Position numbers and translations under genes: made by a program | Part shown: one piece after another, positions 241 through 58,219 of the stretch | Numbering within the stretch: the first letter of the stretch is position 1 | Layout: the number at the start of each line of letters is the position of its first letter | Notes under the pieces: model-generated | The model's input: only the letters and a program-made list of their open reading frames with translations | Databases searched by the model: none | What the model was told of the DNA's origin: nothing | Source: a virus | Virus record (IMG/VR): IMGVR_UViG_3300044617_002308 | Location: 7,268 to 71,267 of that record | Direction: 5' to 3' (one strand) | DNA length: 64,000 bases

Positions 241-259
241 TTGTCTATTGTCTCGGCAA
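241..259 (-). promoter_or_regulatory. 19-bp box (minus-strand consensus YTGCCGARACRATHGACAA), upstream of the portal-like gene
   Basis: + strand ttgtctattgtctcggcaa; overlaps the giant-gene stop codon. Confidence 0.7.
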
Positions 260-3200: not shown

Positions 3201-6200
3201 AGGCGCGTGGCTTCTTTCAGGCGAGTGCGGTTTTTGCTCCAAAATGCGGGATCGCCGAAAGCCTTTTGAAGTTCGCGGCGCAGGCCGTCCACCACGGCAT
3301 TCACGCCGATCTGGGCAAGTGCCTCCTCTTGCTGCGCGGCTTGCAGAATATTTTTCACGCCGGGGGCGAGGGCGTCGGCCACATCCAAGCGGCCACGGAA
3401 AAGGTTTTGGTAGCCGCGCCAAAGTTCGTAAGGCATGGCCTCGCGGATTTCGCCGGCGACTTTGCGCACGCTGCCCGCGGGCTTCTCCTCCGCCGCGCGC
3501 AGGACATTGTTCCAGTTCTCGATCGAGTCCAGGCTCGCCTCGATGCGCTTCTCCATCGGAGGAAGCGCGGGGCGGCGTTTGGCCCCTAATACAGCCCCGG
3601 GCTGTCTCCCCTTGGGAGTTGCTGGAACCACTCCGGCAGTTCGGCCAGCGCCTCCTCGTCCTCCAGAAGGTCGTCCAGTTCCGTCCCGATCCCGTCCGTC
3701 CGCAGGTAGCTCTCCTGCGTCATTGGCTTTTTCCGATGTTCCAAGATTATTTTCGCCGCTCCTGGCAACCTTTGCCCAGTCCGGTCGGCCCACTCCTGAA
3801 CCATCCGCAATTGCTTCTGACGCAGTTCTTCCGCGTCGCCCTTGGAGGGTGTCGCGGTTGCTCCATTCGTCGGTGAGTCGGAATATGAGATCATGGGCTT
3901 CTTTGGTGGTGATAATGCCTTGTTCGTGCTTTTTCCAGATCGCTCGGACCTTGTTGACATTCGCTTTCTGGCTCTTGAACTTCGCTGGGAAAAGTAAACG
4001 GACAGACTCCCATGTGATACTCTGGACTTCACGCGGAAGCAAGTTGAATTCCTTGGCAACGATGCGGTAGGCTTCCGCAAAGGCGGGGTAGAGTCCGCTA
4101 ATGCCGAGGTTTGCGCTGCCAGCGGCTCCGCCTTGGCCGAAATTCTGGCTGACCTCCGGGCTGTTGCCGGAGAGGGCTTGCCACAGGATGGCGGCGATGG
4201 CGTGGGTATCCATGGTGACATGGCCGTCCGGGTTCGCGGGGTCCACAATGTTGTTGTAGAACGATCGCACCTTGTGCTGAACGCCGAGTTCGGCGCTGAT
4301 CGTCTGTATCTCCGCCTCGGCTGGAGCCGAAAGGATGTTGATCGCTTTTTCAATCGTGTTGTAGCTGCCCCATGCGATGGAGCGTTGCTCGCCTTTTTCT
4401 GTGAGCATCGGGTTGCCGAAGCGGCCATCGGGTGAGACGACGGGGAAGGAGGGTGAGTCGTAAACCTCGCTCCACATGCGGATGAAGCGGGCTTGGAATT
4501 CCAGCGGAAGGTCTTTGAGTTTTTTTCCTTTGAGTTCTTCAATATCCGCCTTGGCTTCCTCAAGTTTCTCCCGCGCCTTGGCGTTGTCCCAATTCTCCCA
4601 ATCCACGATATCGCCCGCGTCGTTGGTAACCGGCTTCGCGCCTTTTTCGTAGAGGATGTTTCCTTGGGCGTCGCGCTTGTAGTCGTCTAGCTTCTTGTCC
4701 CATTGCGGCTGGGGCTCGCCGCTGCGGCGGATGTATTGGGCCGCCATGGCATCGTCGAAGATGGTGTCCTGGTGGTTGCGCCAGACATTCATCATGCGCT
4801 CGGCCAGGGCCACATTCATGAACCAATCCTTCTGCGGGCTGAACACGGCCAGCACGGCGGCGGAGCGGTTGAGCGTGGTGCCGAAGCGGGTGGCGAAATC
4901 CTGCGCGATGATGTTTGCGCCATCATACCAAAGGCGGGCGATGTCGCGGAGGTCGGCGGGGAAAAGATCGATGAGGCGCTCCAGATTGTCCACGGCCATC
5001 TCGGTGAGGGCTTGGTAAACGCTTTCGGCCATCGAAGTCGGGAACCGGCGCTCGTTGGCGAGGATGGCCTTCACCTCGTTGTCGAAGGCTTTCTTGGCGA
5101 CATCGACCTCCGTCTTGGCTTTCTCGGCGGCGGTGCGGGCGGCGTTGATGCGTGAGACCAGCCCGCGCACCTTGCGGGAGTTCTCATCCGGCTTGGCTTC
5201 GATGGCGGCATCCACGGCGGCCATCTTCACCTTCGCCTTGCGCACGCCCTGCTGGCGGGCGAGTTCGACCTGGAGCGCCTCGCGGGCTTTCTTGTGCTCG
5301 TCGGTCTTAATCTCCAATCGGGCCTGCGCCCTCACAAGCGGAGCGCGCACCTTGCGGACAAGCGCGGCGGCCTCGGGAAGGCGGCCAGCCACCAGCGGGT
5401 AGTCGGCCAGGAGCATGGCGTTCTTGCGGAACAGCGCGGGGTCTTGGCGCATGGCGTCGAGGCCCACCAGCATCGAGGCGTCCGTGCCGGAGCCGTCTGG
5501 ATTTTTGCCGGTCGGGTTGCGTGTGCCAACCGCCGTGCCTGCGACCACTTTGCCTTTTGTCTCGGCAAGGATACGCGCGGGGCGCGATTTGGCGAAGAGC
5601 GCGCCCTGTTCAATCACAGGGGCTGCTGGCGCGGGATCAAGCAAGCCTTCGCGTTGCAACTCGTTGACAATTTCGCCCGAGATCGGTTGGTTGCCTTGCA
5701 CTTGCCGCGCTTGTTGTGCGATCTGCTGCGCTTCTTTTTGCTCCACGAACCGGCCTGTGGTGGTGACAAAGCCGAAGTTCTGCGTGGGCGGGAATTCTCC
5801 GCCATCCAAGTCATACTTCGTCTCCTCCATGAGTTCTGCGTGCGTTTTGGCGGGTGAGCTTAGAACAGTGCCGTCCTTGTCGATCACGGCGGTGGCGGCT
5901 ATGCGCTCGGGCATGGCTTGTGTAGCCGGGGCAGGCTGTGCAAACAAATCCCCCACATCTTTTGTGTTGATGGCTGGCGCTGTGCTGGCTTCAACACTCG
6001 CAATCTCTCGGCTGAAGTTTTCCAGAACCGCGCTTGGGTCGTCTTCTTGGAAGAGCGCATCGGTAATCGCTTGTTCTCGCGTCTTTCCAGCAGCCACGCC
6101 ATTGAGAATCTCGCTTCTTACTTTGCTGGCGTCTGCCGTGACCATGGTGTCCGGGGCGCTTTTTGCAACAACCGCGAGCAATGGGTTGATGTTGACATCA

Positions 6201-9200
6201 GCCGCCGCTCCGAGGAAATGAATGCGCGGCGGTTTTGCTTCGGATAAAAACTCCGCAAGTTTTTCCCTGCTGACAGCCTGCGCGTTTGAAGGAATGCCAA
6301 CAATAAATTTGGATGGATCAATTGTTATTCCTTTGGAGTTGGAGTTCAGTATCTCAAGAATTTTATTGTAAGCCTGCGCAAGAGATAGTTCGCCAAGCGG
6401 AATAGGAATAATCGGAGTAAGTGCCTGCGCTTCTGTTTCGACTGCGATCCTGTCTTTGTATTTGTCTGTCAAAAGCAAGGATGCCTTTTGGTTGCCGATA
6501 ATGTCCGGCATGACCATAAGGGGCGAAGGATAGTCTTTTTCTACGGCGTTTTCTTTTTGAATCGCATCTAAAATAGAATCGTATTTTTCAAAAATTTTAT
6601 CAAAACTCAATGGCTTCAAGGTATTCCCCTTTTCAGCCTCCTTTTGAGACTTGATGAAGTGACTGAATGCCCCGGAATCGATAAAGACTTGCGCGTCGAG
6701 ATTCACCACCGCGTTGGCCAGCGCCTCTATTGCATTTTTAGACAGAAGGCCGACATCAAATCCGACTCCATAGTTCTGCATCCCGCCGCGAACAAATGTG
6801 GATGTAGCGAGGTCGCTTATTCCGCTCATGCCCGAGGCAAAGCGAACCATGTCTTTTTTGATTTTTTCTATCGGCGCATCGATTTCCCTTGTAAAACCAA
6901 ACTCTGTGGCTGTCGGCGAAGGAGCCGGGGATGATGCATCTCCAAACAAATCCTCCACATCCTCGCGCCCGCTGCGGCGGAAGGCTTCTTCGCGGGCTTG
7001 GGCGTCCACCACCGTGTCGGGCTTCACCGGCGCGGGCGGGAGCGTTTCGCCGACTAGGTTGAACGGCGTCTCGTCGCCGAAGAGTTCGCCCGTGGTGTCT
7101 GATGAGCGGCGGGGCTTGGCGAAGAGCGGAGTCTCTTGTCTTCTTTGGGCGTATTCCAACACGGGGCCAAAAACATTGCGCACCAACGGTGGAGGAACTC
7201 CATTTCCAATAATTGTGAAAGCAACATCTTGGTCGGCGGGCAAAGGATAGTCATCAGGAATACCAGTCATTCTGGCTTTTGCTCTTGGTGTCAGCCTTTT
7301 AACTATACCGCCTGGAAGAAGTATTCGATCTACGGTATTCGGAGACGCCTTAAATGTAAATGCGGGCTGGGTAGCTCTGGCAAAAGCGACCTGCTTGAAA
7401 AGAGTCGTGCCGCTCACCAACACAGGCTCGCTCACATTTAGCGGATCGGGAAAAGCGCTGCTGAATCCGTTGCCCTCTCTCCAAAGGTATTCTTGACCGG
7501 GTTTTGGTTTGTTCTCAATTACATCATCAGGCAAGTCGTCAATCAAATCAGCAATCGTTTCATACCATCCCGGCCCTTTGACCGGCGTAGGATCGGGGAG
7601 AAAAGCGGCTCCGCGAACAGCGCGGAGCAGATAGCGCCTGCGGGCGGTGGGTGCGCCGTAGTCCGCGGCGTTGTAGATGCCTTCGTCAAAGGTGTAGCCC
7701 TCGCGCTCTAGAGCCTCGCGGATGATTCCGGCAGAAATGGTCTTGCGGTATTCCCAGACATTTTCAATCGTGACCACTTGTGGCTGGATTTCCTTAATGT
7801 GGCGGGCAACCGCGCGGGCGGACTCCACATCGAGGTCTTTCTCGCCGCCGCCCTTCGCTGCGCTGTTCATAAGCGAGGAATTTTTGCAGACCGGCGAGGC
7901 GTGGTAGTGGAACGCGCCCTTGTGTTTCTCCAGCGAAACCTCGCGGATGTCGGAGACCTGGACATGATCGCCGTGCGCGGCGCGGTAGGCTTGGGCGATG
8001 GAGGCGTCGTATTCGACGGCGGCGACGGGATTCACCAAACCGCGAAGGCCGATTTCCACAAGCCCGCCACCAGAAAAGGTGGTGATGCCGCTCGGGAGTT
8101 TGGCGAGATTCGGAACTAAGTCGCTTGAGCCTCGCGCTGGCTTTGCGCCGAGAATTTGCGGTCCAGAGCTTGGTCGATTGCGCTCTGCATCCATGCGGCT
8201 TCGTGCCGCGAAAATTCCTGCTCGGTTGCGAAATCTTTCCTTGAGTAATTGCGAACCGGACCAGTTGCGCTCAAGATTGGCGATTCGGTAGATTTCACTG
8301 CCTGTAAGGGCTTCGATGGGGAATCCAAGTTCACGCTGGAATGTTTCGCTTGTGAGGCCCGCGCGGTCAAGGAGTTTTTGGGTGTCCTGCGGGCGCGGTT
8401 TGAGGTAGTTCTGGGACTGGCTGTCGGCCAGGGCGGCGGCGGCGACAACCTCGGCTCCGTTGGAGACCAGGTGGTCGATCAAAGCCGTGAGCGTGTTGCC
8501 GCTGGTGTAAACATCGTCCACCACCACATACTGCGCCGAGGGATCGACCTCGCCCTCGAAGGTCTGGATGTTGCCCATGCGCTGGGCCGCCGAGACTCCC
8601 GTGTTCGACATTCCGCCGCTCTTGACGATGCCGGTATCCACGCGGCTATTGGGGATGCGGCGTTGGAGGCTGCCAGCCAGCGCGGCGGGTAAGGCGTTGT
8701 GGAACACGCCGGGATCGGAATGCCGGACGGGGACGAAGATCACATCTTGGTCAGCATTGAGTCTGGCTTTGACTTCATCAACCATTTTCTGGGTGATGAG
8801 GGACTCGCTGATATCCACGGCGGCCACGGGGTCTCCGCCTTTCTTGGCGGCTTGGTAGGCGGGGCTGACCATGGCCAGATCGGGGGCGCGGCCTGCGATG
8901 ACGGGCGCGGGGTCAAGCTCTACGAGTTGCTCGCCTGGCTTCAGCCCGGTGGTGCGGAGTTTCGCCACTTTCGTGGACCGGGCGACGATATCAAGTGTGT
9001 CGGGGTAGTTCCCAGGAAGGGAACTGGCCGGAGCAGCGTTGCGGCGCGCCTTGGCGAACAGTGCCACGCCTTGGTCGGTCTCGCGGGTATCAAGCGTGTC
9101 GAACAGGATATCGTAGGCTTGGCGGATGCCTCCTTCCATTTCCTGCGGGAGCGGGTAGGCTTCGCCGCTGGGGTCGATGTTGGCGAGGTAGTCGTTGGTG

Positions 9201-12200
9201 ACGCTGCTCTTGGCGAGGCGTTCGACGACATAGGTTTCAAACGCGCGGGCGGCTTTCTCGATGGTGGTGCCGTAGTAGGGCGTGGAGCGGGTGGCATCGA
9301 GCTTCTTGCTGCGCTCGGCGAAGGTTCCCGTGCCCACGGCGTTGCGGATGGCGCGGAAGGCGTCCATCACGGCGGGGCGCACATTCTTGGGGTTGCGGAT
9401 CGAGTCGGTGGCGTATTCGTCCACGGCCTTGGGCGCTGTGCTTCCGGTGCGCTCCACGCGGGCGAAGTAGTTGTCGAGCGCGTGGAACCATTCGTGGGCC
9501 AAGCTGCCAGGGCCTGCGTTTTTTGTGAGGTTGATGACAACTTGGCCGGGTTCGTAATGCGCGGCGGCGGGGCGCTTGCCTCCTGTGCCTCGCGCGCCAA
9601 AGGCCATTCCAAGAGCGCCATCAAGCGAGAGCGCTTTGGTGGGGACGTTGAGCGCCTCGGCCAAGTCCATAAGGGCGTCGAAGGCGTTGTTCAAATCGCG
9701 CTGGCGGCGCTCGCCTTCCACATAGTTGCCAAATTGGACTCCACGGAAGCCGAATGCCTCGGTGAACATCTCGGGCGAGACATCGCCTTCGCGGCGGGCT
9801 GGGCCGGTGCGCGGATCGTTGAGGGCTTTGCGAAGGATCGGCTCCTTGCGCATTTCCTCCCATTGGAAGCGCAGGTTGTCGTAGTTGTCGGTGAGCCAGT
9901 TGCTCGCCTCCTTCACACTCTTGAATCCGGGCTTGAGGCGAATCACGCCGCTCGCGCCTTTTTTGCCAATGAAGATGTCTCCAGTCGTGCGGTCGCTGTA
10001 GAATTGGAAGTCGATCTTCTTGGCCTCGGCGGGCTTCGCGGCCTGCGCTTGGAGGTGGGCGCGGAATTTTTCAAGCGTTTGGCTGTAGCCGCGCCTCCAG
10101 TCGCCATCAGGGACGACGGAGGAAAGGTTCCATGCCATGCGATAGTCCTTCTCCATGTAGGAAACGATGTCGCTGGCTTTGGTGGGTTGGCCGTTGAAGG
10201 TGGTGTAGCCTTGCTTCTGGCGCAGTTTCCAGCCTTTGGCCTCCAGCATGAGCGGGTAGCCAAGAGCATCGTAAAGTTCCACTTGGTCGCGCATCTCGGG
10301 GGCGTCGGCGAGCAACAGGTTGAAGCGTTCGATGGCGATGGGGTTTGAGGGATCGACGAGGCGCTGGATGATCGTGCGCGTGCTGATCAAGCCCTCGGTC
10401 CAGCGGCGGAGCTTCCAGCCGGTCGATGGTTTTCTCGGGATCAAGTCGCGCAGGGCGCGCACGGCGGCGACACGGCGCGGCTCCATGCCGCTGGCCAACA
10501 TGGCTTCGTAGTCCGGCTCGGGGAGGAATTTCGCCAAGGTGATGTCGGCGGAATCTTCGGGCAGGTCGGCCATGATGGCGTCGGTGTATTTTTGCCAGAG
10601 GTCTTTGCGCGCGCCTTCGATCTTCTCGCCGAAGTCTTCGATGCGGGCGGTGTTCTCGGTCTGCGGCTCCAGCTTGAGTTCGGGAGCGTTCTCCACCTTC
10701 GTGTCGGCCTTGGCCTGCCAGCTTGGAGTCCAGGGTTTCGCGGTCTGGTTATAGGCGTCAGCAAAGAGATCGAGTTGCTGGGCTTGGCGGGGCTTGGCTC
10801 CCAAGTAGGTGGCCGGTTCTTCAAGAAGTCCGGCTTCTTTGAAGGAGAAATAGTTGCTGCCGTCTTCTTTCACGGCATCGATAAAGGTCACTTGCATTCT
10901 TCCTGTGACTTCGCGCAATTGCTGAACCAATCTGCCTTGCGCGAATCCAGGATCGACTCCCGCGCCTTTCAGCGTGGGCAGCAATACGGTGAAAGCATGT
11001 GCGCCTTCCCTTGAAACGGTCTGGAAAATTTGCTGGCCGAGTTCCTGTGCGGTCGGGTTTTTCTTATTAAACTGCTCGACGGCCAGAACGCGCAACTTGG
11101 TGTTGAGATAGACAATGTGTCCGGCGTCGGGATTGGACTGGCTTAATTCCTTGGCGATGGCTGCAAACTGGAAAGGCAACTCCGCCGTAGCAAGTGTATC
11201 GAATGAAACCTTTTCCCACTCCGCCTGTGTAGGGGTTTCAAACGAGCCTGATCCGAAACCCTTGAGCGAATAATACTTTGTTCCGTTGGTGATGACATGA
11301 TCGATCAGATTGAAATCCAGCGCGCTTGCGAGTTCCTCGAAGTTTTTTTGAACTCTGTAATCCGCCTGCGAGGGCGTGGGGTCGCCGCTCGGATGGTTGT
11401 GCGAGATGATAATGTTTTCGTATTTTTTGCCATACCGCTCCGAGACCCTTGCCAAAAACCCAAGAACATTGCGGGGATGCGCCATGGCTTCGTTGAGCGA
11501 GCCGACGCTGACGATCTGCGCGCTGACAATGTTCAAGTCGTCGTCCAGCACGGCCACCTTGATCATCTCATGGTAGGGCGAGCGGATCGGCATCATCAGG
11601 GCCGCGAAGTCTTTTGTCTCGGTGATCTTCGTGCCGACTGGGTTCCATGCGGGAATAGTTGAATCAACAAGCTGCGGGAGGATCGCGGAGGCGCGTCCGC
11701 GCATCGCTACGGCGTTGGCAAGTGCTTTCCAGTCGCCAGCCAGGCCGCGCTCGACGAGTTGTTCGTATTCGTCCTCGGCAACTTCCACTGGCTCGTTGGC
11801 TGGAGCGGAGCGGTCGAAAAGATCGAGTTGGTAGGTAGTCTGCCGGAATGGCGATGCGACTTGGGCAAGCTGCATGGCCACGGCATCTTCGGCGACATTG
11901 GCGGGTTGGCTGCCGTTGGCTTCGGTGTAGGCTTTCGCAGAGGCGCGCTGGGCGGCTGTGGGCTTGGCCCCAAGCACCCTGGCGTTGCCGATCTCCTCGC
12001 CGTTTTCCGCGATGATGCGGATGAGGTTTTCGTCGAAGATCACATAGTTGTAGGTGCGCTCTGGAAAATTCCGCAGGAGGTCTGCGCGCATTTTTTCCTT
12101 GGCTTTTGGCGCGTCATAGACACTCCGCATGAAGTCATCGACGGCAGCTTCCTTGTTGCCGTTATTCTTCGTGGCAAGCTCCAAAAGTCGCTCGTCCGTG

Positions 12201-15200
12201 GCGTTGAATTGCCGGCTGCCTTGGTCGGCGTAGCGGATGCCGGGGATGCCTGCGGCGAGGAGGGCTTCGGAGGCTTTCTTTGAAGCGTCAACGCCATCGC
12301 GTGAAAACTCCGCATCGGGAAATGTGGCGCGAAGTGTGCTGTATAATGCCCCGCCAACCTGCTCCCCACTTTTCCCAAAAATTGCGTCCTGCCACAACCA
12401 ATTGCCGGAGATTGATTGCAATGCTGCCTGCACCTTTGGACTTTGGTCGGAGAGCGGCTTGTCCCAATCGAGCATGTCAGCATCATCCACATCGAGTTCG
12501 ACGGCGTAGAGGTTGCCGGGTTGAGTTGTTTCTCTGCCTACGCGCGGGATAACCGCATCATAAGCAGCGATGATTCTTTCTTTGTTCGCGTAGTTATCAT
12601 CGTATTTGGTTGCATTGTCGCGTTGCTGAATAAGCCACGCTTTTAGATCGCTGGTTCCATTTGCGGGAAATGCGCCGATGTCGTTAAATACCAACCGGAC
12701 ATTTTCATCTGAACTTGATTTGAGTTTTTTGGCCAGCGTTGGAGTGATCGTTTGCCCATCAAGTGTATTCTTCTTCCGTAAATCTCCAGCCAGCCTTCTG
12801 CGGTATTCCTCCGCAGCAGCCCGCGCCTCCGCAAAATAAAGCCCCCAGCCATAAGCCTGCGCGCCCTCGCCGGTTCCGATCTTGTCGAGGCGGAAGCGGT
12901 CCACCTTGTGCGGCGTGCCGTGGTGGGCTTTTTTGAGGAACAGGATGCCGGGTTCGGTGGTAACCTCGGCGTTGGCCAAACGCACGCGGGGCTTTGCGGC
13001 TACGGCGCGTTCGCCCATGCCGTCATCGAAGTCCGTGGTGGTGCCATACATCGGGCGGTTTTCGGTGAACCGCGCATCCACCAAGTCGAGCACGTCGCTG
13101 GGCGTGAAGGTGTCGAACCCATGCCCGCGCAGGCTTTGGGCGAGCCGATCCAAGTCGGGCGCGTTTTTGCGGAAGATGCGGGAAACAAAAATGCCCTTGC
13201 CGCCGTAGGCTCCCTTGCCCATGGCTTTGGCGCTTTCAAAGAGCGTGGTGAGTTCGCCGCGGTGGCTTTCGGCGCTTTCAGAAGTGGGCGAGGGCAGTCC
13301 GCCCGCCATTTGGATGGCGTCCAAAAGCTCGAAGCCGCTGGCGCTGGCGTCTTCCATGGCTTTGTCGAGGTTGCCCGCCTCGGCTCGCAGATCGTCGAGA
13401 TACTCGCGCTGCATGGCCTCCAACTCGGCCTGCTCAGCGTCGGTTTTCATTTGCTCGGGCGTCTTGCCCATGCGCACGCGCAGGGAGCCATCCGGGCGCG
13501 GCGTGGCTTTGAGCGCGCCGAGTTGGATCATTTGCGCCCAGGAGAGCGGAGCGGAGTCGCGGTTGGTGAACCCGGCGGGGCTGGCGATGCCGGCCTTCAA
13601 TGTCAAGTCGGCGGGGGCGATGTCGCGGGTGCCATCCTGCAAGACGTCATGCACGGCGTCGATGAAGGCGGCCTGCGAGCGCAGGAGCGGGCCTTCCGGC
13701 AAGCGGCTCATGTTCATGAGGAGTGTGCCGGGGTGGAGATTCGCCATGCCGAGGCGCTTGGCCACAGCCACAGCCTGCGTGACAAGGCGGTCGAGACTCT
13801 CGGGCGTGGACTCGCCGCGCTCGCGGGCCTCGCGGAAGTCGCGCATCTGGCTCACAAAAAGCTGGTAGAATTTCGGGACGAGCTTGGCGTCTTTGTCGCT
13901 CAACTCCGGCATGCCCTCGTCCTCGGCGGCTGGATCGGCCTCCTGCTCCATCTCGGCGGCGCGGGCTTCCAGTTCGGCCTCCTTCGCGTCGAATTCGGCG
14001 GCAACGCGATTGGCCTCGGTGCGGGCCTGCGCATCGTCCGTGATCGGAATCTGCGCGGGCGTGCCTCCCTGCGGGCCGCGAACGAGGTAAAGCCGGCCAC
14101 TCTTGGTGACGCGCGGGTGGAGCGGGATGTCGGACGCGGGTTTTTCCACCGGGCCGAGTTGGGCATCGATCTCCTCCACACGCTCATTGCGGGTGAGGCG
14201 CGGGGCGATGCCCGCCTTGGCCATGAGGTCGTAGCCTTTCTGGTTGATCACGCGCTGCCCGCGGTAGATGTCCACCATGCCGCGCTGGCGCAGATCGGCG
14301 ACATCGGCCTCGCTGGCGGTGTTGCCCGCCACGGCGGCGAGTTTTTCCAAAACCGGAGCCTGCTTGGCGGCGCGCTCGGCGGCGTAGGCATCGAGCGCTT
14401 CCTGCGTGAAGAGGTAGTTGTTGCCGCGCTTCTCGGCGGGAATCACGGCGGCTTTCACTAGGCGCAGGAGTTCCTTCGGCGTGACGCCAAGGGTTTTCGC
14501 GGCTTGGGCCATTTTGATCGTGGGCGCGGCGGCTGGCTCTGTAGGCTCCGGCGGCAATGGCGGCGGGGTCGCCTCGTCTGTCACGACTTCCTGCTTCGGT
14601 GTCACGACTTCTTCCGGCGGGAGCGGGGGCGGTGTGGCTTCGACGCTCTGCACCGGCTGCACGGGCAAAGTGGTAGCAGGAGCGGGAGTCGAACCCGCGT
14701 CTCCAGGATATGAGCCTGGCAACTTAACCTCTCGTCCATCCTGCGGTGTGGAAAATTCTTGGGAAACTGGTGCAACGGCTGTCGGCGCGGCCACACGCTC
14801 GAAGAGATCGCGCACGGCTTGGGGCTTTTTGTTAAATTCTTGGATGCCTTTTTTGAACGCCGCCTTCACCTGATCAAGGTTCGTGACGAGGATCGCGGTA
14901 TCGGCTAGGCCTGAGAGGATCAGGAACGGCTGGGCCGTCATCACGCCGGAGACGAGTTTGAGCCCGATGCCCACGGTGGCGAAGATCACCTGTGGCTTGC
15001 TGAGTTTTCCGCCTTGGGCAGCGCGGTAGAGCTTGTAGGTGCCAAGGAACGAGAGTCCGCCGCCGAAAACCTCGCCGATGTTGGTCGAGAGCCAGTCGGT
15101 GGCCACGCGGTCGCTCACTGCGCCGCTCTGCACCAAAAGCTCCACGCCGGGGAGCGGCAGGCCGCTGCGGGTGAGGCTGTCTTTGAAAAGTTGGATGATG

Positions 15201-18200
15201 TAGCTCGGGACTTCGCTCCAGCCGAACTCGGCGGCCACATTGTCCACATTGGTGAAAAAGTCGTGTCCATACCACACGCGGTGCAGTCCGGGTTCGCTCG
15301 CGGCTTGGATGATCGCGTTACCGGCGGGGTTGGTGTCCGCGTTCATGGCGTCGATCCATTTCCCGATTTCGTTTCCGGGGTTGAGCTTGTCGTAGAGCGC
15401 GGTGCCGTAGTTCAGCGTCTCGCCGTAGGCCGTGTATTGGCTCGGGATGCCGGTATCGACGATCTTGTAGCCGAAGGAGCCAGCAGCGGAAGTGAGGGAG
15501 GTATTGAGGGCTTCTTGCGTCCACTTCTGCGCCCCGCGAGCGGGCTTGGGAACGAAGGCTTGGTTGCGCGGTGCGGCCTTCTCGGGCAGGCGGGTGAGCG
15601 GCGCGGCGGGAGTGTCGATTGTCTCGGCAGGCTCAACAGCAGAAACCGGCGGCGCGTTGGCCTGCTCCACGGGAGCCTCCATGGGCGAAGCAGCCTCGGC
15701 GGCGGGAGTCGCGGGCTGCGGGGTGATGCCAAGCATGGCGTCGAGTTTGGCCACTTCGGCATCGATCTTGGCGGCGGTTTGCTCAAACTCGGCGCGGGTG
15801 TCGGGATCAAGTTGGCCGAGAAGCTCCTCGCGCAGCCAGCGGGCGATGTCTTGGAGCGCTTCCTTGATGCGCTGGGCGAAGGAAGGATCGCTTTCCGCAA
15901 GTGAAGCCACCTCGGAGGCCATGTCCACCTGCTCGGTGGTGCGGCCCTCGGTGACGGCGTTCAAATACATGCGCCAGAACTCGGCTCCGGCTTGGAACTC
16001 ATCCACTTCGACTTGCGTCCAGTCGCCGCCCACGGCTTCGAGTTCGGCGGTGAAGTAGGTTTCCACCACACGCTGCTTGGCGGTGTCGGGCAGGGTTTGC
16101 CAGTCTTGGATCACCTCGGCGCGCTTGCGCACGTTCATGGTGGCGACATGGATCACCTCCTCGCGCAGGGCGGCTTTGAGTTTTTCTTGGCGGGCTTCGG
16201 GGGCGACTCCGCCCAAGTATTCCACCAGCGCGGTTTCATCGATGTAAACCTTGCCTTGATGGGCAAACATGGGCGATGGGCTCGGCGTGTAGCGGGCGCG
16301 CTCTTGCTTAGGAAGCTCGGCGTAGGTTTTGGCATCCACCACCCGGTTGCCGCGCGTGAAAAAGCGTGGCGAACGAACCACCAGAGGTGCGCTGGAAACC
16401 CACGGCGCGGCGGTTTGAAGCATGAGAAGCGCGGTGCCGCGGTTGACGGGTTGGGTGAAGACATCGGCGGTTTCCGTCTCGGGAAGCGGCGGGGGCGTTG
16501 TGTCTGCGGTTGGATCGAGGGTAGTGGTGACGCTCTCGGAAGTCGTGTCGGTAGCGCTGCCTGCCGGGGTGGTGGCCGTGTAACCTTCTTGGCCAAACTC
16601 GCCGGGTTGCACGGCATCAGGAGTCTGCGGGTTGAGCGCGTAGGCGGCCTTGTCTTCGAGCGTCTGGAAAAACTGCGTGTTCTCCGGCGTGATGGTGAAG
16701 ATCGGAGCCTCGGGGCTGGTTTGCTGCCAAGTGCCATCGGGTTGCTTCTCAAAAGTTCCGGTGACTTGCGCGCCGTCCGGGGTTTGGAAGTTTTGCGTGA
16801 CGGGCGGCGTGACAGAGATCGGAGCGGGGATTTGCGGGCCGGTGGTATTGGTTGGGGTGCTTGGCGTGACTGGCGCGGGCACTGGAGTCTCGCCAACAGG
16901 AGTCTGCGGCGTGGCAGGAGCAGGCGTTGTTGGCTGCACCGGAACAGTCGGCGTGGCGGGCGCGCTGGGGGCAGGAGCGGAAGGCGTGGTGCTGGCGGCT
17001 GGCGGTTGCGTGGAGACGCTTGGCGTGGTCGGTGTGGGCGCGGAGGGCTGAACGGGAGTTGTCGCGCTGGCGGGTTTCTTGTCGGCGATCAAAACAGGAC
17101 GGCCATTCACCATGCGAAACACGCCGCCATACTTGGCGCGGAGTTCGGCGTCGCGCTCGGCTTGCGTTTTGCGAAGCACGGGGGCTTTGGCCGTCTCGGG
17201 CGCGGCTTGTTTGATCTCCTCGCGGAATTCATCGGTGAGCACGATGTCGTCGCCGTAGGTGTAGGCGGCGGGCTTGCCGCTCGCGGTCTGGTGGCCGAGG
17301 AGCGTGGACTCCTGCGAGACGCTCAAGGGCACGCCGTTGGCGGCGCGCAGGGCGGCATCCACCACCTCGCGCTGGCCGGGGGGCAGGGCGTTGATCTCGC
17401 GGGCGGTGTTGATCGACATCTCGCTCACGGCGGCGGTGTCGAGCAGGTTGGCTTGGAGGGAGTTCTCGATGCGGGATTTTTCCGAGAGGAGTTGTTGGCG
17501 CTGCGGGTTCGGCGTGAACGGGATGTTGCCCGGGCGCACTTGCGGATCGGCGGGAAGGGCGTTGAGACGGGCATTGACATCGGCCAATTGCACCATCAAG
17601 TCCTTGCGCTGGGTGTTGAGCGTGGCAACGAACTGCGGGCTTTGGTAGTTCTGGGCCTGGCGGGCGACTTCCACCGTGAGTTGGGTGCCGGTGTTGTTGT
17701 GTTTGTTGTAGTTGGCAACGAACTTGGTGAGCGCCTTGGTTTGCGCCCGCTCGTTTAGCATTTGCTTGGTGGCGTCGTAGCCCAGGCTGACGGCTCCGCC
17801 GCCAATGGCATGAACTGGCCCCATGCCGACGCCGAGGATCGCTCCATGGATGCCTTGGTTGATGGCATCTCCGAATGATGCTCCGGCTTCGCCAAACGAG
17901 GCCACGGCTTCTTGGAAAAACTCGCCGCCGCCGGAGACGAGGGACTGCTTGCCGAAGTCCACGCTGGAGTTCCAGATTTGCTGCCCTCGGGTGAGGGAGA
18001 TGCCGGGTGTGGTTTCGATCTTGCCAAGGGTGCGCCAACTATCGGCGATGTTGTCGCCGATGCGTGAAAAGGAAGACACGGCATTGGCGGCCTTATTGAG
18101 GTTCGAGCCCACGCGGGTGGCCGCGCCCACGGCTTTCACGCCGTAAAGTGCGCCGCCTGAAACAATGCCAAGGAGGTTGACTCCCAGTTCGATGGCTTGC

Positions 18201-21200
18201 TCTGTCAGAGGGGCGACATAGCCGCCGCGAATGGCGGACTTGAAGCCGCCGAATGGCGTTGTCTCATTGATCGCGCCGTTCATGGTGGCGTAGTCGGCGG
18301 CGGCGCGCTGAATTTCGAGTTCGGACTGGCTGCTGAACGAGGCGGCGCGGGCCTGCGCGGCGAGGCGGGGATCGCGGGTCTGCTGGTAGGCGGCGGCGAA
18401 TTGCGCGATGGCCGAGCGAGGATCGCTCATGCTGTTCTCGTAGCTCATGCGGTAGCCCGCGCCGTCTTCGAGGCCGAGCGCGGAAGTCCAGCCGCTGGCA
18501 TTCGCGCGCATCTGGTTGAATTCCCCAGTGAGTCGGGAAATTTTTTCCTCATGGGCCTTGTATTTGACTTTCGTCAGGTTGCCGGAATCGACATCGCGCA
18601 GGTAGTCGTCCCACGCGCGGTTAAGCGCGCCGGCGGTTTTTCCGTCCCAGACATCTTTCATGGCATCGTCCACGGCGTAGGTGCCAGTGAGGGCTTGCAG
18701 GGCAATGCCGGTGGGTGATGTCAAAAATGAAAGGTTACGGATCGGGGTGATGCGATCGGCCACGGCAGCCGACATATTGCGCACGCTGGCCATCGTCTGG
18801 CTGCCGATGATTTGCTTTTCCTGATCGGTTAAAAGATTTCTGCCCCCCTCGGGAAGCCACGCATTGACTTTGGAGGAAACCGTCTCTCCGGCCAGGTTGG
18901 CCAGCGGGCGGGCCACAGAGCCAAAAACATCGGTGACTTTGTTGTAAAGTCCGTCGCCCAGAATCGCGCCTGTGCCTTGTAATATGCCGACAACCGATCC
19001 GCCCATGTCGACGATGTCCCAGAAACCTTTATTCACCCACTCGGTGAATGGCACATCCTTGAGTGCATTGTCGCGGGCGGCAGTAAAAGCCGGGTCGGTG
19101 AAGTCCACGCGGGTGCGGTTCTGATCAAGATATTCGGAAAGGAAGGCTTGGCGGGCGTCGGCGGTGAGGTTGGTGGCGCGGCGCTGGGCTTCGCCGCCTT
19201 TGAACAGGCTCCCCACAAAGTCGATCGTGCTTTGTCCGAAAAGATCAAGCTGCTTGTCTTTTAGGATGCCACCGAGTTTCTGTGTGTATTCTTGGCCTTT
19301 GGCGGTGTTTTTCTGCCAGTCCTGCCAAGCCTCGTTCACGCTCGGCATCACGGGATCGGTGCCGTAGAACGCGCGCTCCAGCAGTCGGCCTTCCTGCGCG
19401 CTGATGATGCCATTCTCGAAAAGAGCACGGGTATCAAGGCGGCGGTTGGCCGGGGCGATGTCCTTCTGGCGCGGGTCCAACTCCGCGATCATCTCTTGGC
19501 GCTGGGCGGGCGTGGCCACGGTCCAGCGGGTGAGCGTGTCGTTGAAGCGCTCGGCGTCCATTTTCTGGCCAGCCCAGGCGTCCTTGGCGGTTTGCTCCCA
19601 AGTGGCGAGTTCGTTCTTGTAGTTGTTCATCACCTCGCGGCGCTGGTCGGCCGGGAGCATGGAAAGGGAGAGATCGCTGGGCTTGCGGGGCTTGAACTGC
19701 GAGGCCCACTCATCTGACATCGGCAGGTATTCCTTCACGCCGTCGAGCGGGCTGCCGCTGAGTTGGGAGGGGGAGAGGCGGTTGTCCTTGTTGAGTTCGA
19801 TAAATGGCACGCCGTTGCGGTCGAACTGGTAGGTGCCGACATCCACGGGCTTGCCCTTGGAAGTCCACGGCATGGGGATGCCCCAGATGCTCGACTGCTC
19901 GTCGCGGGTGGTGGTGATCGCGCCTTTGTTCAGAACGAAGTTCTGCGGAAGTTTGACGTCGTAGAGGCCGAACTGGTTGGCGTTGGCGCGGGCTTCCTGC
20001 GCCTCGGGCGTCATCCAGGAGCGGGGAATCTCGGTGATGCCGGTTTTGTTGACGAAGTCTTGGATTTTGGCCTTGATGGCGGGCGAGGCGTCGGGATCGT
20101 GCAGGAGGCCGGTGGGCTGGCCTTTGGCGTTCGTGCCGGTGAGCTTGTAGGTGCCGGTGGCGTCCATCTTGGCCAGCAGGGCGTTGGTTTGCTCGATGGA
20201 CTTGTTGCGGCCCCAGGCGTCGATCTTGGCGTCGGTGCGGGCTTTTTGGTTGGCGTTCCAAGCGTTCGTGATCGAGTCCGCGATCTTGAGGGAGTCGGGC
20301 GCGAGGTTTTTGGCAGTCGCGATGCTGCGATCTGTGATCGCGCCCATGAGGGCGGCGACGGGATCGTTGTTGTAAGTGGTGGCGGACTGCTGGGACTTGG
20401 AGATGCGATCAAGCGCGCTTTGCAGGCCGAGGCCGCCTTTGGGATCGCCCTGGTAGGCGAGCTTCTGGCGGGAGGCGAGGTCGTCGGCGAGGCGCTGGTC
20501 GTTGGCGCTTTCGACCTGCTGGCGGTAGGCGGCTTTCTTGTAGGCATCGATCTGTTCGAGTTCCAGGCGCTCGCGCAGGCCCTTGTTCTTGCCGTTGAGT
20601 TGGTCGATCTCGCCTTGGAGGCGCTTGTGCTCCTCGCTGTTGGACTGGCGTTGTTGCTTTTCCAGCGCGCGGATCGCCTTTTCGTTGTCGGCAATGAGCT
20701 TGCGGGTGGCCGCGGCCTTGTCGCTGGCTTGGTCGGCCTCGCGCTTGGCATCGGCGGTCTTGGCGGCGAGTTCCTTGGCCAGCGCGGGATCGTTGCCGAC
20801 TTTGGAAGGATCGAAGCCCACCCATTTCCACGGGAGCCCTTCGACAACTTTGTAAACATGGCCGTCCTTGACGACGGTTTTCCCATCCGCATCGGGATCG
20901 ATCGGCGTCATGGCCCTCGTCTTGGGGTCCATGGCGTAGGGAAGGCCAGTGTCGCCGTCCCAAAGCACACCGCTGTTGCCCCACTTCTTCATCACGCCGC
21001 CGGAGGGGGCGGTGATCGGGACAATGCGCCGCGAAGCTCCGCTGCCCTCGGTGAAAAATGCAATGGCATCGCCCTTGTAGTCGCTGGCTTGCTGGCGGGC
21101 GGCGCGCTCGGCATCGCGGGCTTGCTGGCGGGCTTGGCGCTCTTGTTCACGCTGGGCGCGGATGAGTTCGCGTTGGGCTTTTTCCTGCGCCTTGGCGTAT

Positions 21201-22927: not shown

Positions 22928-22946
22928 CTGTCAAATGTCTCGGCAG
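22928..22946 (-). promoter_or_regulatory. 19-bp box
   Basis: + strand ctgtcaaatgtctcggcag, 27 nt before the ATG at 22900. Confidence 0.65.
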
Positions 22947-28864: not shown

Positions 28865-28883
28865 TTGTCTATCGTCTCGGCAA
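28865..28883 (-). promoter_or_regulatory. 19-bp box
   Basis: + strand ttgtctatcgtctcggcaa, 8 nt before ATG 28856; TTGACA lies immediately upstream on the minus strand. Confidence 0.7.
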
Positions 28884-30007: not shown

Positions 30008-30025
30008 TGTCAATCGTCTCGGCAG
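30007..30025 (-). promoter_or_regulatory. 19-bp box abutting a start codon
   Basis: + strand ttgtcaatcgtctcggcag; its last base is the A of ATG 30007. Confidence 0.65.
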
Positions 30026-36187: not shown

Positions 36188-36777
36188 TTCGTGGGTTGTT
36201 TTTTGGAGTGTAAACTTTGTCGATTGTCTCGGCAATTTTTTTCTTGACGCCTTTTCGGAATCGTCGTTAAAATGGGCTCACTGGTGTGAGCGGAGCAGGA
36301 AGTTTGTGTGGTGTTGCTCTTTTGTTTTTTGGGTTTCGCGTCGATGTGCCTTCGGATGAAACCCGGCACCAATCCTGACTCTTCGGGCGATTCGACAAAC
36401 ACGGGCAGATGTCCGATTCGGATGGTTTCGTTGAGATATTCCACGCAGTCGGCGAATGTGTGGCAGCGTTTCCAGCAATGCTTTTCGACGCCGGCTTTTT
36501 TCGCTTCCTCGTTGTCGATCGTCTCGAAAATTTCGCGCGGGTGCTGGGTGGTTGTCTCGTCGAATTTCGCGCGCTCCAGGTGGAGTGTCACGGTGGTTTT
36601 GGTTCCGTGCACGGTTCGCGTGAAATACACGGCGTGGTGGCTTTTGAGCGCATCGGCGGCGGCGGCGAAAAGCCACTGGCTTTCGTTCGCGCGGTAGGGA
36701 CCGGCGAAGGGTTCGAGGTTCGGGGGGATGTTCTTTTTGTCGAGGATTCGGAGGTGGAGCAGCGGGTTGAGTGTCAT
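36184..36777 (-). CDS. Hypothetical protein
   Basis: ATG 36777 with ATGA overlap. Confidence 0.55.
   Translation of the reverse strand: MTLNPLLHLRILDKKNIPPNLEPFAGPYRANESQWLFAAAADALKSHHAVYFTRTVHGTKTTVTLHLERAKFDETTTQHPREIFETIDNEEAKKAGVEKHCWKRCHTFADCVEYLNETIRIGHLPVFVESPEESGLVPGFIRRHIDAKPKKQKSNTTQTSCSAHTSEPILTTIPKRRQEKNCRDNRQSLHSKKQPTK
36217..36235 (-). promoter_or_regulatory. 19-bp box upstream of terS
   Basis: + strand ttgtcgattgtctcggcaa, identical to the copy upstream of the MCP gene. Confidence 0.75.
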
Positions 36778-38661: not shown

Positions 38662-38680
38662 TTGCCAATCGTCTCGGCAA
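38662..38680 (-). promoter_or_regulatory. 19-bp box upstream of the MTase
   Basis: + strand ttgccaatcgtctcggcaa, 5 nt before ATG 38656. Confidence 0.7.
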
Positions 38681-56883: not shown

Positions 56884-56902
56884 TTGTCGATTGTCTCGGC
56901 AA
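56884..56902 (-). promoter_or_regulatory. 19-bp box upstream of the MCP gene
   Basis: + strand ttgtcgattgtctcggcaa, 19 nt before ATG 56864. Confidence 0.75.
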
Positions 56903-58200: not shown

Positions 58201-58219
58201 TTGTCTAATGTTTCGGCAG
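58201..58219 (-). promoter_or_regulatory. 19-bp box upstream of the scaffold gene
   Basis: + strand ttgtctaatgtttcggcag. Confidence 0.65.

What the first reader, a model, noticed from the sequence alone, without database searches (positions are those of the whole stretch)
14671..14745. Complete initiator-type tRNA-Met nested on the sense strand inside the 7029-aa ORF
Seen: a full 75-nt cloverleaf with CAT anticodon, TTCGACT T-loop and encoded CCA lies in a Pro-rich linker and is also read as protein (PQDGREVKLPGSYPGDAGSTPAPAT) with no stop. The unpaired C1/U72 and the A11:U24 pair are initiator hallmarks. Intact pairing in all stems suggests selection on the RNA or a very recent capture. Inference: RNase P and 3' processing would cut the 21-kb mRNA between the structural N-terminal third and the enzyme cassettes. 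That would trade full-length protein against tRNA supply, or yield a separate downstream message. The tRNA could also replace or decoy host tRNA-fMet attacked by VapC-type nucleases (position 38 is U rather than the usual A). A 19-bp box lies ~870 nt upstream inside the ORF. I do not know of a described system like this, but cannot check the literature here.
Basis: partly seen in the sequence, partly recalled or inferred. Interest (0 to 1): 0.92.

Follow-up and report, generated by a model that had tools for sequence, protein, structure and literature searches.

The report
Initiator-type tRNA nested in giant phage gene
A complete, initiator-like methionine tRNA gene lies in frame inside the flexible linker of a phage's 7029-residue virion-type protein gene, and related phages keep both the tRNA and the open reading frame, so the same 75 bases very probably serve as tRNA gene and as protein code.

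Summary
ARAGORN and Rfam (57.6 bits, cut-off 29) call one tRNA(CAU) at 14671-14745 on the minus strand. It lies on the sense strand inside the uninterrupted ORF 245-21334 (7029 aa), a polyvalent protein, and is the only tRNA of this complete 71-kb temperate phage. Two other complete phages (71-75% identical in the neighbouring domain) carry the same tRNA at the same place and in the same frame. So do contigs laid from three further studies. Synonymous sites differ at 0.09 inside the tRNA and at 0.57-0.76 next to it, so selection acts on the RNA. All nearby indels keep the frame. The tRNA has the bacterial initiator hallmarks in their alpha-proteobacterial form (unpaired 1:72, G2:C71, C3:G70, A73, A11:U24, au/GC/GC stem), plus unusual U38 and U72. 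A classic attP-like tRNA 3' fragment lies next to the integrase 34 kb away, so the nested tRNA is not needed as attP. Processing, charging and any trade-off with the mRNA are inferred; no RNA data exist. A printed precedent exists: selC nested in selB (Mukai 2021). This scan noted the same feature on another genome, and other nested phage tRNAs. Verdict: a new variant of a known kind, well supported, with untested mechanism.

The parts
14671..14745 (-). tRNA(CAU), 75 nt with encoded CCA; initiator-type features (C1.U72, G2:C71, C3:G70, A73, A11:U24, A29:U41/G30:C40/G31:C39), U38
   Evidence: ARAGORN; Rfam 57.6 bits; pair counts; comparison with alpha-proteobacterial tRNA-Met(CAU)
245..21334 (-). 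Uninterrupted 7029-aa ORF of a polyvalent protein. Every Pfam domain found (HTH_17, ART-PolyVal, RadC, LPD5, LPD1, PRTase, C5 DNA methylase, DUF7178) lies C-terminal of the tRNA
   Evidence: The source collection holds both a 7029-aa gene call and a 4807-aa call that starts just after the tRNA
14810..15547 (-). Last conserved domain of the N-terminal 'chassis' (about aa 1930-2175, ends ...TNLDQVKAAFKKG). It is shared with relatives whose C-terminal domain sets differ
   Evidence: alignment A2
14747..14803 (-). Upstream Pro/Ala-rich linker (19 aa here, 16 and 21 aa in the two relatives), read in the same frame
14510..14670 (-). Downstream Pro-rich linker with repeated EATPPPLPP motif. From the tRNA to the PKELL motif inside the HTH it is 64 aa here and 63 and 82 aa in the relatives. 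Frame kept, 0 stops
14372..14509 (-). HTH_17 (excisionase/AlpA-type) domain, the first domain after the tRNA
   Evidence: Pfam PF12728, 27.3 bits
15613..15630 (-). Oriented box CTGCCGAGACAATCGACA inside the ORF, 868 nt 5' of the tRNA; possible internal regulatory or promoter element
   Evidence: L001 has a box 866 nt upstream of its tRNA at the homologous place. L002 has one about 1020 nt upstream at a different place

Best explanation
The 75 bases are dual-coding. They form a functional, phage-specific initiator-type tRNA(CAU) gene. It probably derives from an alpha-proteobacterial tRNA-fMet, and lies in frame in a disordered linker at the junction between the conserved N-terminal part and the variable enzyme cassettes of a giant polyvalent protein gene. 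Ribosomes read the stretch as a 25-residue Pro/Gly/Ser-rich linker. RNA copies that are not being translated fold into a pre-tRNA, which host RNase P and 3'-end nucleases mature. Such copies could be full-length messages at the end of their life or transcripts from the internal box. A given RNA molecule then yields either the tRNA or the downstream 4800 codons, not both. Shown: a real tRNA by covariance model; RNA-level purifying selection; frame maintenance; initiator determinants; it is the sole tRNA of three complete phages. Inferred: expression, processing, charging and formylation, the either/or trade-off, and the benefit. The likeliest benefit is supply of an initiator tRNA for late phage translation, possibly one that resists anticodon-loop nucleases, given U38.
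For: (1) Real tRNA; relatives score 57.8 and 52.4 bits.
(2) Conserved nesting: of 4 loci found with the flanking domain, the 2 closest (L001 75%, L002 71% aa identity) have the tRNA at the same place inside an open ORF of more than 4100 codons. It is read in the same frame.
(3) RNA-level selection: 5-8 differences per 75 nt while the linkers barely align. pS is 0.09 in the tRNA segment, 0.57-0.76 in the adjacent domain and 0.39-0.80 gene-wide. pN/pS is about 0.9-1.3 in the tRNA and 0.17-0.28 in the domain.
(4) No stem change breaks a pair. U25C and C28U keep G10:Y25 and Y28:G42; the other changes are in loops. The anticodon loop is invariant.
(5) Frame kept: frame 0 has 0 stops across linker, tRNA and linker in 3 of 3 phages, while the other frames have 1-4 stops. 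Linker lengths differ, always by whole codons. The motif EA[TL]PPPLP is conserved in frame downstream.
(6) Population variants: contigs laid from three other studies bridge the tRNA in the same context (X3 57 and X7 52 differences over 0.8-1.06 kb). None of the 40 listed differences lies within 14658-14753. The nearby indels are AGG (+3) and 4+5+1+2 = 12 nt.
(7) Initiator features are present in 3 of 3 copies. They match the criteria quoted in PMC5389676. The anticodon stem is identical to those of Rhizobium, Devosia and Bosea tRNA-Met(CAU).
(8) It is the sole tRNA in each of three records rated 100% complete, one of them with terminal repeats.
(9) Control: among 130 other viral tRNA(CAU) copies with this anticodon arm, the longest stop-free frame spanning the tRNA is 314 codons.
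Against: There is no RNA evidence at all: no RNA run holds the sequence.
No pair shows a change on both sides (0 of 21), so structure-specific covariation is not shown. Only three full sequences exist, and they are 89-93% alike.
The tRNA is atypical: U72 and U38 in place of the A seen in all 4 compared initiator-type tRNAs, a very different D arm, a G.A or A.A 13:22 pair and a 4-nt variable loop. L001 has G55 and A18 and scores lower (52.4 bits). L002 does not encode the last A of CCA.
Isotype-specific models (tRNAscan-SE) could not be run, so Met elongator or Ile2 (lysidine) identity is not formally excluded.
The tRNA is dispensable for the wider family: 0 of 8 more distant loci have it.
RNase P cleavage would leave a non-stop upstream message and an unprotected downstream one, which is a real cost.
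The host is unknown. No bacterial genome among the species representatives matched the tRNA's 3' half, so no comparison with the host initiator is possible.
Confidence: 0.6

Rival explanations
1. The tRNA-shaped stretch is a cis-acting RNA processing signal only. It would be an RNase P 'punctuation' site that splits or down-tunes the 21-kb message, for example to set the amount of full-length polyvalent protein or to release the N-terminal part. The excised RNA would not be used for decoding.
For: Its position is exactly at the junction between the conserved N-terminal part and the variable cassettes. Odd features for a decoding tRNA are U72, U38, G55/A18 in L001 and the missing terminal A in L002. 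The family manages without the tRNA in 0 of 8 more distant loci.
Against: RNase P needs mainly the acceptor and T arms. Yet the anticodon arm is the best-kept part: loop invariant, and one pair-preserving change in 17 nt. The T loop varies at 3 positions. MetRS and formylase determinants (CAU, A73, G2:C71, C3:G70, unpaired 1:72) are all kept in 3 of 3 copies. It is the sole tRNA of each phage.
Confidence: 0.13
2. The giant ORF is really two genes, an N-terminal gene of about 2200 aa and a C-terminal gene of 4807 aa, with an ordinary tRNA gene between them. The lack of a stop codon would be an accident. One source annotation splits it this way.
For: The JGI/IMG gene call starts at the TTG right after the tRNA (4807 aa). 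Two of the three frames of the tRNA are stop-free, so openness across 75 nt is cheap (read directly from the sequence). The HTH_17 domain begins with Met in the window and L001.
Against: There is no stop in frame 0 over 327-399 nt of diverged linker plus tRNA in 3 of 3 phages, while the other frames have 1-4 stops. Upstream and downstream frames coincide in all three despite indels. A peptide motif is conserved in frame downstream. The Met is CTC (Leu) in L002. Relatives without the tRNA are continuous across the same linker. An N-terminal gene without a stop codon would be a non-stop message.
Confidence: 0.08
3. Neutral passenger: a tRNA gene recently captured into a permissive linker, or spread among these phages by gene conversion. 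It would not be expressed as tRNA, and its similarity would reflect recency, not selection.
For: A 75-nt insert (25 codons) with 2 of 3 frames open is easily tolerated in a disordered linker. The giant gene is mosaic: the window and L002 are 90-100% identical over aa 3100-4000 but far less elsewhere. There are no double compensatory changes.
Against: Low divergence is confined to the tRNA in all three pairwise comparisons, and also in the roughly 7%-diverged population variants. That would need repeated conversions with ends exactly at the tRNA borders. The 5-8 differences avoid breaking any pair.
Confidence: 0.08
4. The tRNA is integration-related: the phage attP (a copy of a host tRNA-Met gene), or a decoy target for other integrating elements.
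For: Temperate phages often integrate into tRNA genes. The phage has a tyrosine integrase.
Against: The integrase (49389-50549) is 34.6 kb away. A typical attP-like fragment (T arm, acceptor 3' strand and CCA, 49268-49296) lies 93 nt upstream of it. No bacterial genome among the species representatives matched the tRNA 3'-half pattern or the flanking domain. The whole tRNA is conserved, including the 5' half.
Confidence: 0.03

Closest known systems
selC (tRNA-Sec) nested inside the selB ORF of Alphaproteobacteria (Mukai 2021, Int J Mol Sci 22:4605, PMC8124441; text read, parts 1-2 of 3)
   Same: An entire tRNA gene on the sense strand inside a protein ORF. Its length is usually a multiple of 3. 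It is translated as an unstructured extension and conserved across relatives. The hypothesised mechanism is the same: once the tRNA folds and is processed, the message becomes non-stop, so tRNA and protein are alternatives. It too is bioinformatic only.
   Different: There the tRNA lies at the very C-terminal extension of SelB, the stop overlaps the next ORF's start, and tRNA and protein are functional partners. Here it lies mid-gene with 4808 codons (14.4 kb) downstream. The setting is a phage polyvalent protein gene with no evident functional link to an initiator tRNA, and it is the phage's only tRNA.
Mitochondrial tRNA genes nested in protein genes (tRNA-Lys inside cox1 of Armadillidium vulgare; Doublet 2015, seen only as cited and summarised in PMC8124441)
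   Same: A whole tRNA in direct orientation inside a coding region; processing and translation compete.
   Different: That is a compact organelle genome with a reduced 60-nt tRNA. Here the tRNA is a canonical 75-nt cloverleaf in a 71-kb phage.
Polyvalent proteins of phages and conjugative elements (Iyer et al. 2017, PMC5512222; passages read)
   Same: A giant multi-domain protein with LPD1, LPD5, ART-PolyVal, RadC, methylase and PRTase domains, next to packaging genes (a weak terminase hit).
   Different: In that paper the 3 occurrences of 'tRNA' concern RNase targets or stand in the reference list. No nested RNA gene is described.
Bacterial initiator tRNA-fMet, alpha-proteobacterial au/GC/GC form (Shetty et al. 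2016, PMC5389676; passages read)
   Same: Unpaired 1:72; G2:C71; C3:G70; A29:U41/G30:C40/G31:C39. The anticodon stem is identical to plasmid-borne Rhizobium, Devosia and Bosea tRNA-Met(CAU).
   Different: U72 instead of A72, U38 instead of A38, a divergent D arm, a 4-nt variable loop. It is at most 84% identical to any tRNA found in the phage and plasmid collections.
Phage-encoded tRNAs as counter-defence (van den Berg 2023, PMC10264068, passages) or for tRNA-dependent lysogeny (Guerrero-Bustamante and Hatfull 2024, PMC10865867, abstract)
   Same: A phage tRNA with an anticodon-loop change relative to host-type tRNAs (U38); a single tRNA in a temperate phage.
   Different: No nuclease or host is known here. 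The candidate attP carries a tRNA-like 3' end that would rebuild its target, so complementation of a disrupted host tRNA is not indicated.

Membership tests
tRNA (Rfam RF00005) | Covariance-model score above the gathering threshold over the full model | tested here: met
   57.6 bits against 29, model 1-71 of 71. Relatives score 57.8 and 52.4 bits. ARAGORN calls all three.
tRNA (Rfam RF00005) | Cloverleaf kept in relatives, with covarying pairs | tested here: inconclusive
   57 of 63 pair cells (90.5%) are standard against 40-49% with slid partners. There are 2 one-sided pair-preserving changes and 0 two-sided changes among 21 pairs in 3 sequences.
Bacterial initiator tRNA-fMet | CAU anticodon and A73 | tested here: met
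Bacterial initiator tRNA-fMet | No Watson-Crick pair at 1:72, with G2:C71 and C3:G70 (formylase determinants as stated in PMC5389676) | tested here: met
   C1.U72 in 3 of 3; G2:C71 and C3:G70 in 3 of 3. The mismatch is C.U, not the C.A seen in the 4 compared tRNAs.
Bacterial initiator tRNA-fMet | Three consecutive purine:pyrimidine pairs 29:41, 30:40, 31:39 with G30:C40 | tested here: met
   A:U / G:C / G:C in 3 of 3. This is the form that PMC5389676 says is natural in all alpha-proteobacteria.
Bacterial initiator tRNA-fMet | A11:U24 (recalled criterion, from no call) | tested here: met
   A:U in 3 of 3
Bacterial initiator tRNA-fMet | Charged by MetRS, formylated, used in the P site | not testable with these tools
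   Needs biochemistry. Isotype-specific covariance models were not available.
Nested tRNA inside a protein ORF (selB/selC type, Mukai 2021) | Whole tRNA on the sense strand inside an ORF that stays open in relatives | tested here: met
   3 of 3 phages, plus bridging contigs from three other studies
Nested tRNA inside a protein ORF (selB/selC type, Mukai 2021) | tRNA forms the C-terminal extension, and the stop overlaps the next ORF's start | tested here: not met
   The tRNA-encoded residues are 2197-2221 of 7029.
Polyvalent protein (Iyer 2017) | Many unrelated effector domains plus LPD domains in one phage polypeptide | tested here: met
   Pfam LPD5 92.9 bits, LPD1 48.3, RadC 88.7, DNA_methylase 78.2, DUF7178 72.5, Pribosyltran 28.0, HTH_17 27.3. 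ART-PolyVal scores 21.6, below its cut-off of 31.2.
Phage attP in a tRNA gene | Attachment site beside the integrase, identical to part of a host tRNA gene | tested here: not met
   It lies 34.6 kb from int. Another tRNA-like 3' fragment lies 93 nt upstream of int. The 3'-half pattern has no match in genome contigs.

The most novel reading that the evidence does not exclude
The nested tRNA is a built-in switch, not a passenger. The phage would make a nuclease-resistant initiator tRNA (U38 at the site where VapC-type toxins cut, U72) from within its largest late gene. It would do so either from an untranslated internal transcript started at the conserved box about 0.9-1.0 kb upstream, or by sacrificing full-length messages. 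RNase P processing would then both supply initiator tRNA for SD-less or leaderless phage messages and set the dose of the full-length polyvalent protein relative to its N-terminal part. Together with the other nested tRNAs noted by this scan, this would make tRNA-in-linker dual coding a general, unpublished phage strategy.
Probability: 0.2. Interest if true: 0.85.

Novelty: new variant of a known kind. Interest (0 to 1): 0.62.

Why it matters
If the RNA is matured, one stretch of DNA is under simultaneous selection as a tRNA and as protein code. One transcript then has two mutually exclusive fates, inside the largest gene of a phage. The only printed bacterial example I found (selB/selC) is a bioinformatic prediction for a C-terminal extension. 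A mid-gene case with 14.4 kb of coding sequence downstream makes the cost of processing far larger, so maintenance is harder to explain without a benefit.

It also matters for annotation. Pipelines that mask tRNAs split this gene (4807-aa call), while others hide the tRNA (7029-aa call). Both calls are held in the source collection for this same contig.

A phage-specific initiator tRNA with changed positions 38 and 72 is a concrete candidate for testing two ideas: that phage tRNAs escape host anticodon-loop nucleases, and that they favour phage translation initiation.

Tried and rejected
attP hypothesis: rejected (see rival explanations).

Separate C-terminal gene starting at the HTH Met: the Met is not conserved (CTC in L002).

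Sigma-70-type promoter or terminator next to the tRNA: 0 promoter-like sites, and 4 terminator-like sites against 3.0 expected, none adjacent to the tRNA.

Expression: no RNA holder was listed among 24 runs, so nothing can be said about transcripts or ends.

More tRNA-bearing relatives:
- The metagenome-contig scan gave 3 distant loci without the tRNA.
- The genome-contig scan gave none.
- The representative search gave 82 hits, none closer than 57% identity.
- Protein searches gave nothing closer: one search had no hit, one search had 17 hits, and one search had 2 hits. Apart from the window's own gene call, the closest was 62% identical.
- The exact-core scan of IMG/VR returned only the L001 and L002 contigs.

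Remnant tRNA in L003 and L004: no tRNA-like match even at E up to 10.

Published phages: the 3.5-kb region has no match in the phage collection. The tRNA alone matches phage and plasmid tRNA-Met genes at 84% or less over the listed alignments.

X6 contig: it shows small deletions at 14745-14761. Whether tRNA base 1 is changed cannot be told from the table. Its substitutions were among the 89 rows not shown.

Literature: searches for a nested tRNA in a phage coding sequence found none. Supplementary files were not opened. The supplementary tRNA tables of PMC10264068 may list phage initiator tRNAs with loop changes that bear on the U38 reading.
Full report
WHAT IS THERE. ARAGORN reports a single tRNA in the 64-kb window: tRNA-Met, anticodon CAT, 14671-14745, minus strand. 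Rfam's tRNA model scores it 57.6 bits (gathering 29, E 8.1e-10) over the whole model. The window is part of a 71,267-base IMG/VR virus record rated 100% complete, and this is its only tRNA match. The tRNA lies on the same strand as ORF 245..21334, which is uninterrupted for 7029 codons. The tRNA is read as residues 2197-2221, PQDGREVKLPGSYPGDAGSTPAPAT.

THE HOST GENE. Pfam places eight families in the protein: HTH_17, ART-PolyVal (below cut-off), RadC, LPD5, LPD1, PRTase, C5 DNA methylase and DUF7178. All lie C-terminal to the tRNA. The N-terminal 2196 residues match nothing in Pfam or PHROGs. This is a polyvalent protein in the sense of Iyer et al. 2017 (PMC5512222, passages).

T loop, encoded CCA, C1/U72, A11:U24 and U38 are correct. 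The 13:22 pair is also non-standard, so 19 of 21 stem pairs are standard. Folding energy alone is unremarkable (z -1.7).

IS IT KEPT IN RELATIVES? A scan of IMG/VR with the 385 residues just upstream of the tRNA found 4 loci. The two closest have a tRNA-Met(CAT) at the same place, inside ORFs open for more than 4100 codons to the end of the fetched DNA. These are L001 (75% identity) and L002 (71%). Both come from records rated 100% complete, and one has terminal repeats. In both, this is again the only tRNA of the record.

The tRNA is read in the same frame in all three: PQDGQEVKSLGSYPG[ND]AG..PAPAT. More distant relatives (40-54% identity) have no tRNA within the 5-6 kb fetched on each side. 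This holds for 0 of 8 loci: L003, L004 and L011-L016. L003 and L004 show no remnant even at E 10. In those relatives the conserved domain is followed directly by a Pro-rich linker.

The wider family shares the N-terminal part up to the motif TNLDQV and then carries different domain sets. So the tRNA sits at the junction between a conserved chassis and variable cargo.

SELECTION ON THE RNA. In the DNA alignment the tRNA block is almost invariant, while the linkers on both sides barely align and contain indels. The three tRNAs differ at 8, 6 and 5 of 75 positions. By Nei-Gojobori counting:
- The proportion of synonymous differences in the 26 codons holding the tRNA is 0.09 in all three pairs.
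- In the 240 codons of the adjacent, best-conserved domain it is 0.57-0.76; across the two gene-wide parts it is 0.39-0.80.
- pN/pS is about 0.9-1.3 in the tRNA and 0.17-0.28 in the domain.

This is the reverse of protein-level constraint, and it is what selection on an RNA predicts.

The two changes in stems keep the pair (G10:U25 to G10:C25; C28:G42 to U28:G42). The rest lie in the D loop, variable loop, T loop, the non-standard 13:22 pair and the last base. The anticodon loop is invariant. There is no pair with changes on both sides (0 of 21), so classical covariation is not demonstrated.

SELECTION ON THE READING FRAME. I examined the stretch from the end of the domain (AVRDL) to the PKELL motif inside the HTH. 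Frame 0 has 0 stops in 3 of 3 phages, and the other two frames have 1-4 stops. The upstream linker is 19, 16 and 21 residues; the stretch from the tRNA to PKELL is 64, 63 and 82 residues. The motif EA[TL]PPPLP recurs in frame downstream of the tRNA in all three. The Met at the start of the HTH domain is ATG in the window and L001 but CTC (Leu) in L002. A separate start there is therefore not conserved.

INDEPENDENT POPULATION DATA. No RNA run holds the sequence. I laid Logan contigs of four DNA runs from four studies, labelled freshwater, aquatic and wetland metagenomes.
- Contigs from three studies bridge the tRNA in the same context. X3 covers 14200-15001 with 57 differences. X7 covers 14200-15262 with 52 differences. 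X6 covers 14628-15300 with 36 differences.
- None of the 40 listed differences falls in 14658-14753, though they are dense on both sides. 89 rows were not shown, among them probably X6's. X3 and X7 share many differences, so they are not independent of each other.
- The indels beside the tRNA are +3 (AGG behind 14666) and 4+5+1+2 = 12 nt at 14745-14761.
- Other contigs match only the tRNA (14672-14745, 8-9 differences) and run on into unrelated sequence. A related tRNA therefore exists in other genomic contexts in these habitats. I could not retrieve them.

WHAT KIND OF tRNA. All three copies have C1.U72 (no pair), G2:C71, C3:G70, A73, A11:U24, and A29:U41/G30:C40/G31:C39. Shetty et al. 2016 (PMC5389676, passages) state three things. 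The 1:72 mismatch with the 2:71 and 3:70 pairs is the major formylase determinant. G30:C40 is the essential one of the three G:C pairs. The 'first AU' variant is natural in all alpha-proteobacteria.

I aligned the three copies with plasmid-borne tRNA-Met(CAU) of Rhizobium, Devosia and Bosea and with that of Erythrobacter phage R6L. The nested tRNA shares the CG... 5' end. Its anticodon stem (CCAGG/CCUGG) is identical to those of the three plasmid tRNAs; the R6L stem differs. It differs from all four by U72 (they have A), by U38 (they have A), in the D arm, and by a 4-nt variable loop.

I therefore read it as a diverged initiator-type tRNA of alpha-proteobacterial ancestry. The A11:U24 criterion is recalled, not from a call. 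Isotype-specific models could not be run, so elongator Met or Ile2 identity is not formally excluded.

The same anticodon arm with U38 occurs on 11 IMG/VR contigs, 2 of them L001 and L002. U38 is thus a minority phage variant.

IS NESTING JUST CHANCE? Among the 130 other copies of this anticodon arm in the fetched viral loci, the longest stop-free frame that spans the tRNA is 314 codons. Only 4 reach 200 codons. In the three phages studied here the spanning frame exceeds 4100 codons.

IS IT THE attP? The tyrosine integrase is at 49389-50549. 93 nt upstream, at 49268-49296, lies a T arm plus acceptor 3' strand plus CCA. It aligns with high posterior probability to the 3' end of the tmRNA model (19.1 bits overall, far below gathering). 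This is the classic layout of an attP that rebuilds its tRNA-like target. No bacterial genome among the species representatives matched the nested tRNA's 3'-half pattern or the flanking domain. The nested tRNA is thus not needed as attP. Complementation of a disrupted host tRNA (tRNA-dependent lysogeny, PMC10865867, abstract) is not indicated either.

THE BOX. yTGCCGAGACrATnGACA occurs 14 times in the window, always on the minus strand, against 0.05 expected. In 9 of the 14 copies an ATG follows 0-35 nt downstream, and no Shine-Dalgarno-like sequence is evident. Four copies lie deep inside ORFs (5551, 15613, 36513, 39994), and the copy at 242 overlaps the last codons and the stop of the giant ORF.

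The box is shared by the L001 and L002 records: 10 and 15 copies, all forward. Each of the three phages has one copy 0.87-1.02 kb upstream of the tRNA, inside the ORF. In L001 it is at the homologous place. In L002 it is at a different place, about 60 codons further upstream. This hints at a functional link, perhaps an internal transcript, but its nature is not established.

HOW IT MOST LIKELY WORKS. Shown: a real, conserved tRNA; a kept reading frame; initiator determinants. Inferred: the RNA is matured by RNase P and 3' nucleases from RNA copies not covered by ribosomes, and processing destroys that copy as a message for the 4808 downstream codons. This is the model Mukai proposed for selB/selC (PMC8124441).

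An origin by in-frame capture is plausible. The tRNA is 75 nt (25 codons), and two of its three frames are stop-free (sequence). It sits in a disordered linker at a module junction. It is followed by an HTH_17 (excisionase/AlpA-type) domain that starts with Met in two of three phages, as if a tRNA-plus-small-gene segment had been fused in.

The benefit is unknown. Two candidates are supply of initiator tRNA for late translation of SD-less phage messages, and resistance to anticodon-loop nucleases (U38; idea of PMC10264068, passages).

PRIOR KNOWLEDGE. Five full-text searches for a tRNA inside a phage coding sequence found nothing. [quoted passage not shown]

Earlier notes of this scan report the same feature on another genome (e1-6198845, which shares 6 of 19 short words with this tRNA). 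They also report nested tRNAs (CAT, Trp, Arg, Asp, Ile2) in other phage genes. These are unchecked AI notes. They gave me the lead to Mukai 2021, which I then read.

VERDICT. The finding is a new variant of a known kind. The dual-coding reading is well supported by comparative evidence, but expression and mechanism are untested.

Noticed in passing
window 242-259, 5551-5568, 15613-15630, 22929-22946, 28866-28883, 30008-30025, 36218-36235, 36513-36530, 37320-37337, 38663-38680, 39994-40011, 47092-47109, 56885-56902, 58202-58219 (all minus): An oriented 18-nt box, yTGCCGAGACrATnGACA. It has 14 copies against 0.05 expected. In 9 of the 14 copies an ATG follows 0-35 nt downstream, without visible Shine-Dalgarno sequences. 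It is shared with the L001 and L002 records (10 and 15 copies, all forward). It looks like a phage-specific promoter or operator.
   Followed up: partly
window 49268-49296 (+), 93 nt upstream of int at 49389-50549: T arm, acceptor 3' strand and CCA of a tRNA- or tmRNA-like gene next to the tyrosine integrase: the likely attP. The target gene and host were not identified.
   Followed up: partly
window about 14520-14640 (minus); L001 and L002 downstream linkers: The motif EA[TL]PPPLP[PSD] is repeated 2-3 times in the linker after the tRNA in all three phages. Its function is unknown.
   Followed up: no
giant ORF aa about 3100-4000 (window about 9300-12000): The window and L002 are 90-100% identical in protein here, with mostly identical third positions, but only 39-81 of 100 residues are identical per 100-aa bin elsewhere. 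This indicates recent exchange of cargo modules within the giant gene.
   Followed up: no
window 14810-15547 (minus): The domain just before the tRNA also exists as many small stand-alone proteins. About 59 of the 82 hits in the representative search are under 400 aa and match this part of the query. It has no Pfam or PHROGs family.
   Followed up: no
L001 7143 and 7180 (tRNA positions 17 and 54 by count): L001 alone has A in place of the first G of the D-loop GG, and G in place of the near-universal U55 of the T loop. These are the two partners of the 18:55 tertiary contact (partner assignment recalled). This may be a tertiary covariation or the start of decay. Its Rfam score is lower, 52.4 bits.
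   Followed up: no
runs X2, X3, X7 laid on window 14672-14747: Metagenome contigs, one of 3636 nt, match only the tRNA (8-9 differences) and continue into unrelated sequence on both sides. A related tRNA occurs in other genomic contexts in the same habitats.
   Followed up: no
L071, L100, L113, L133: Four other viral tRNA(CAU) copies (A38 form) lie inside stop-free frames of 234-314 codons on their own strand. They may be further nested cases or chance.
   Followed up: no
whole giant ORF, window 245-21334: The public collection holds two gene calls for the same contig: 7029 aa (source NCBI) and 4807 aa starting at the TTG right after the tRNA (source JGI/IMG). tRNA masking splits the gene in one pipeline.
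   Followed up: yes
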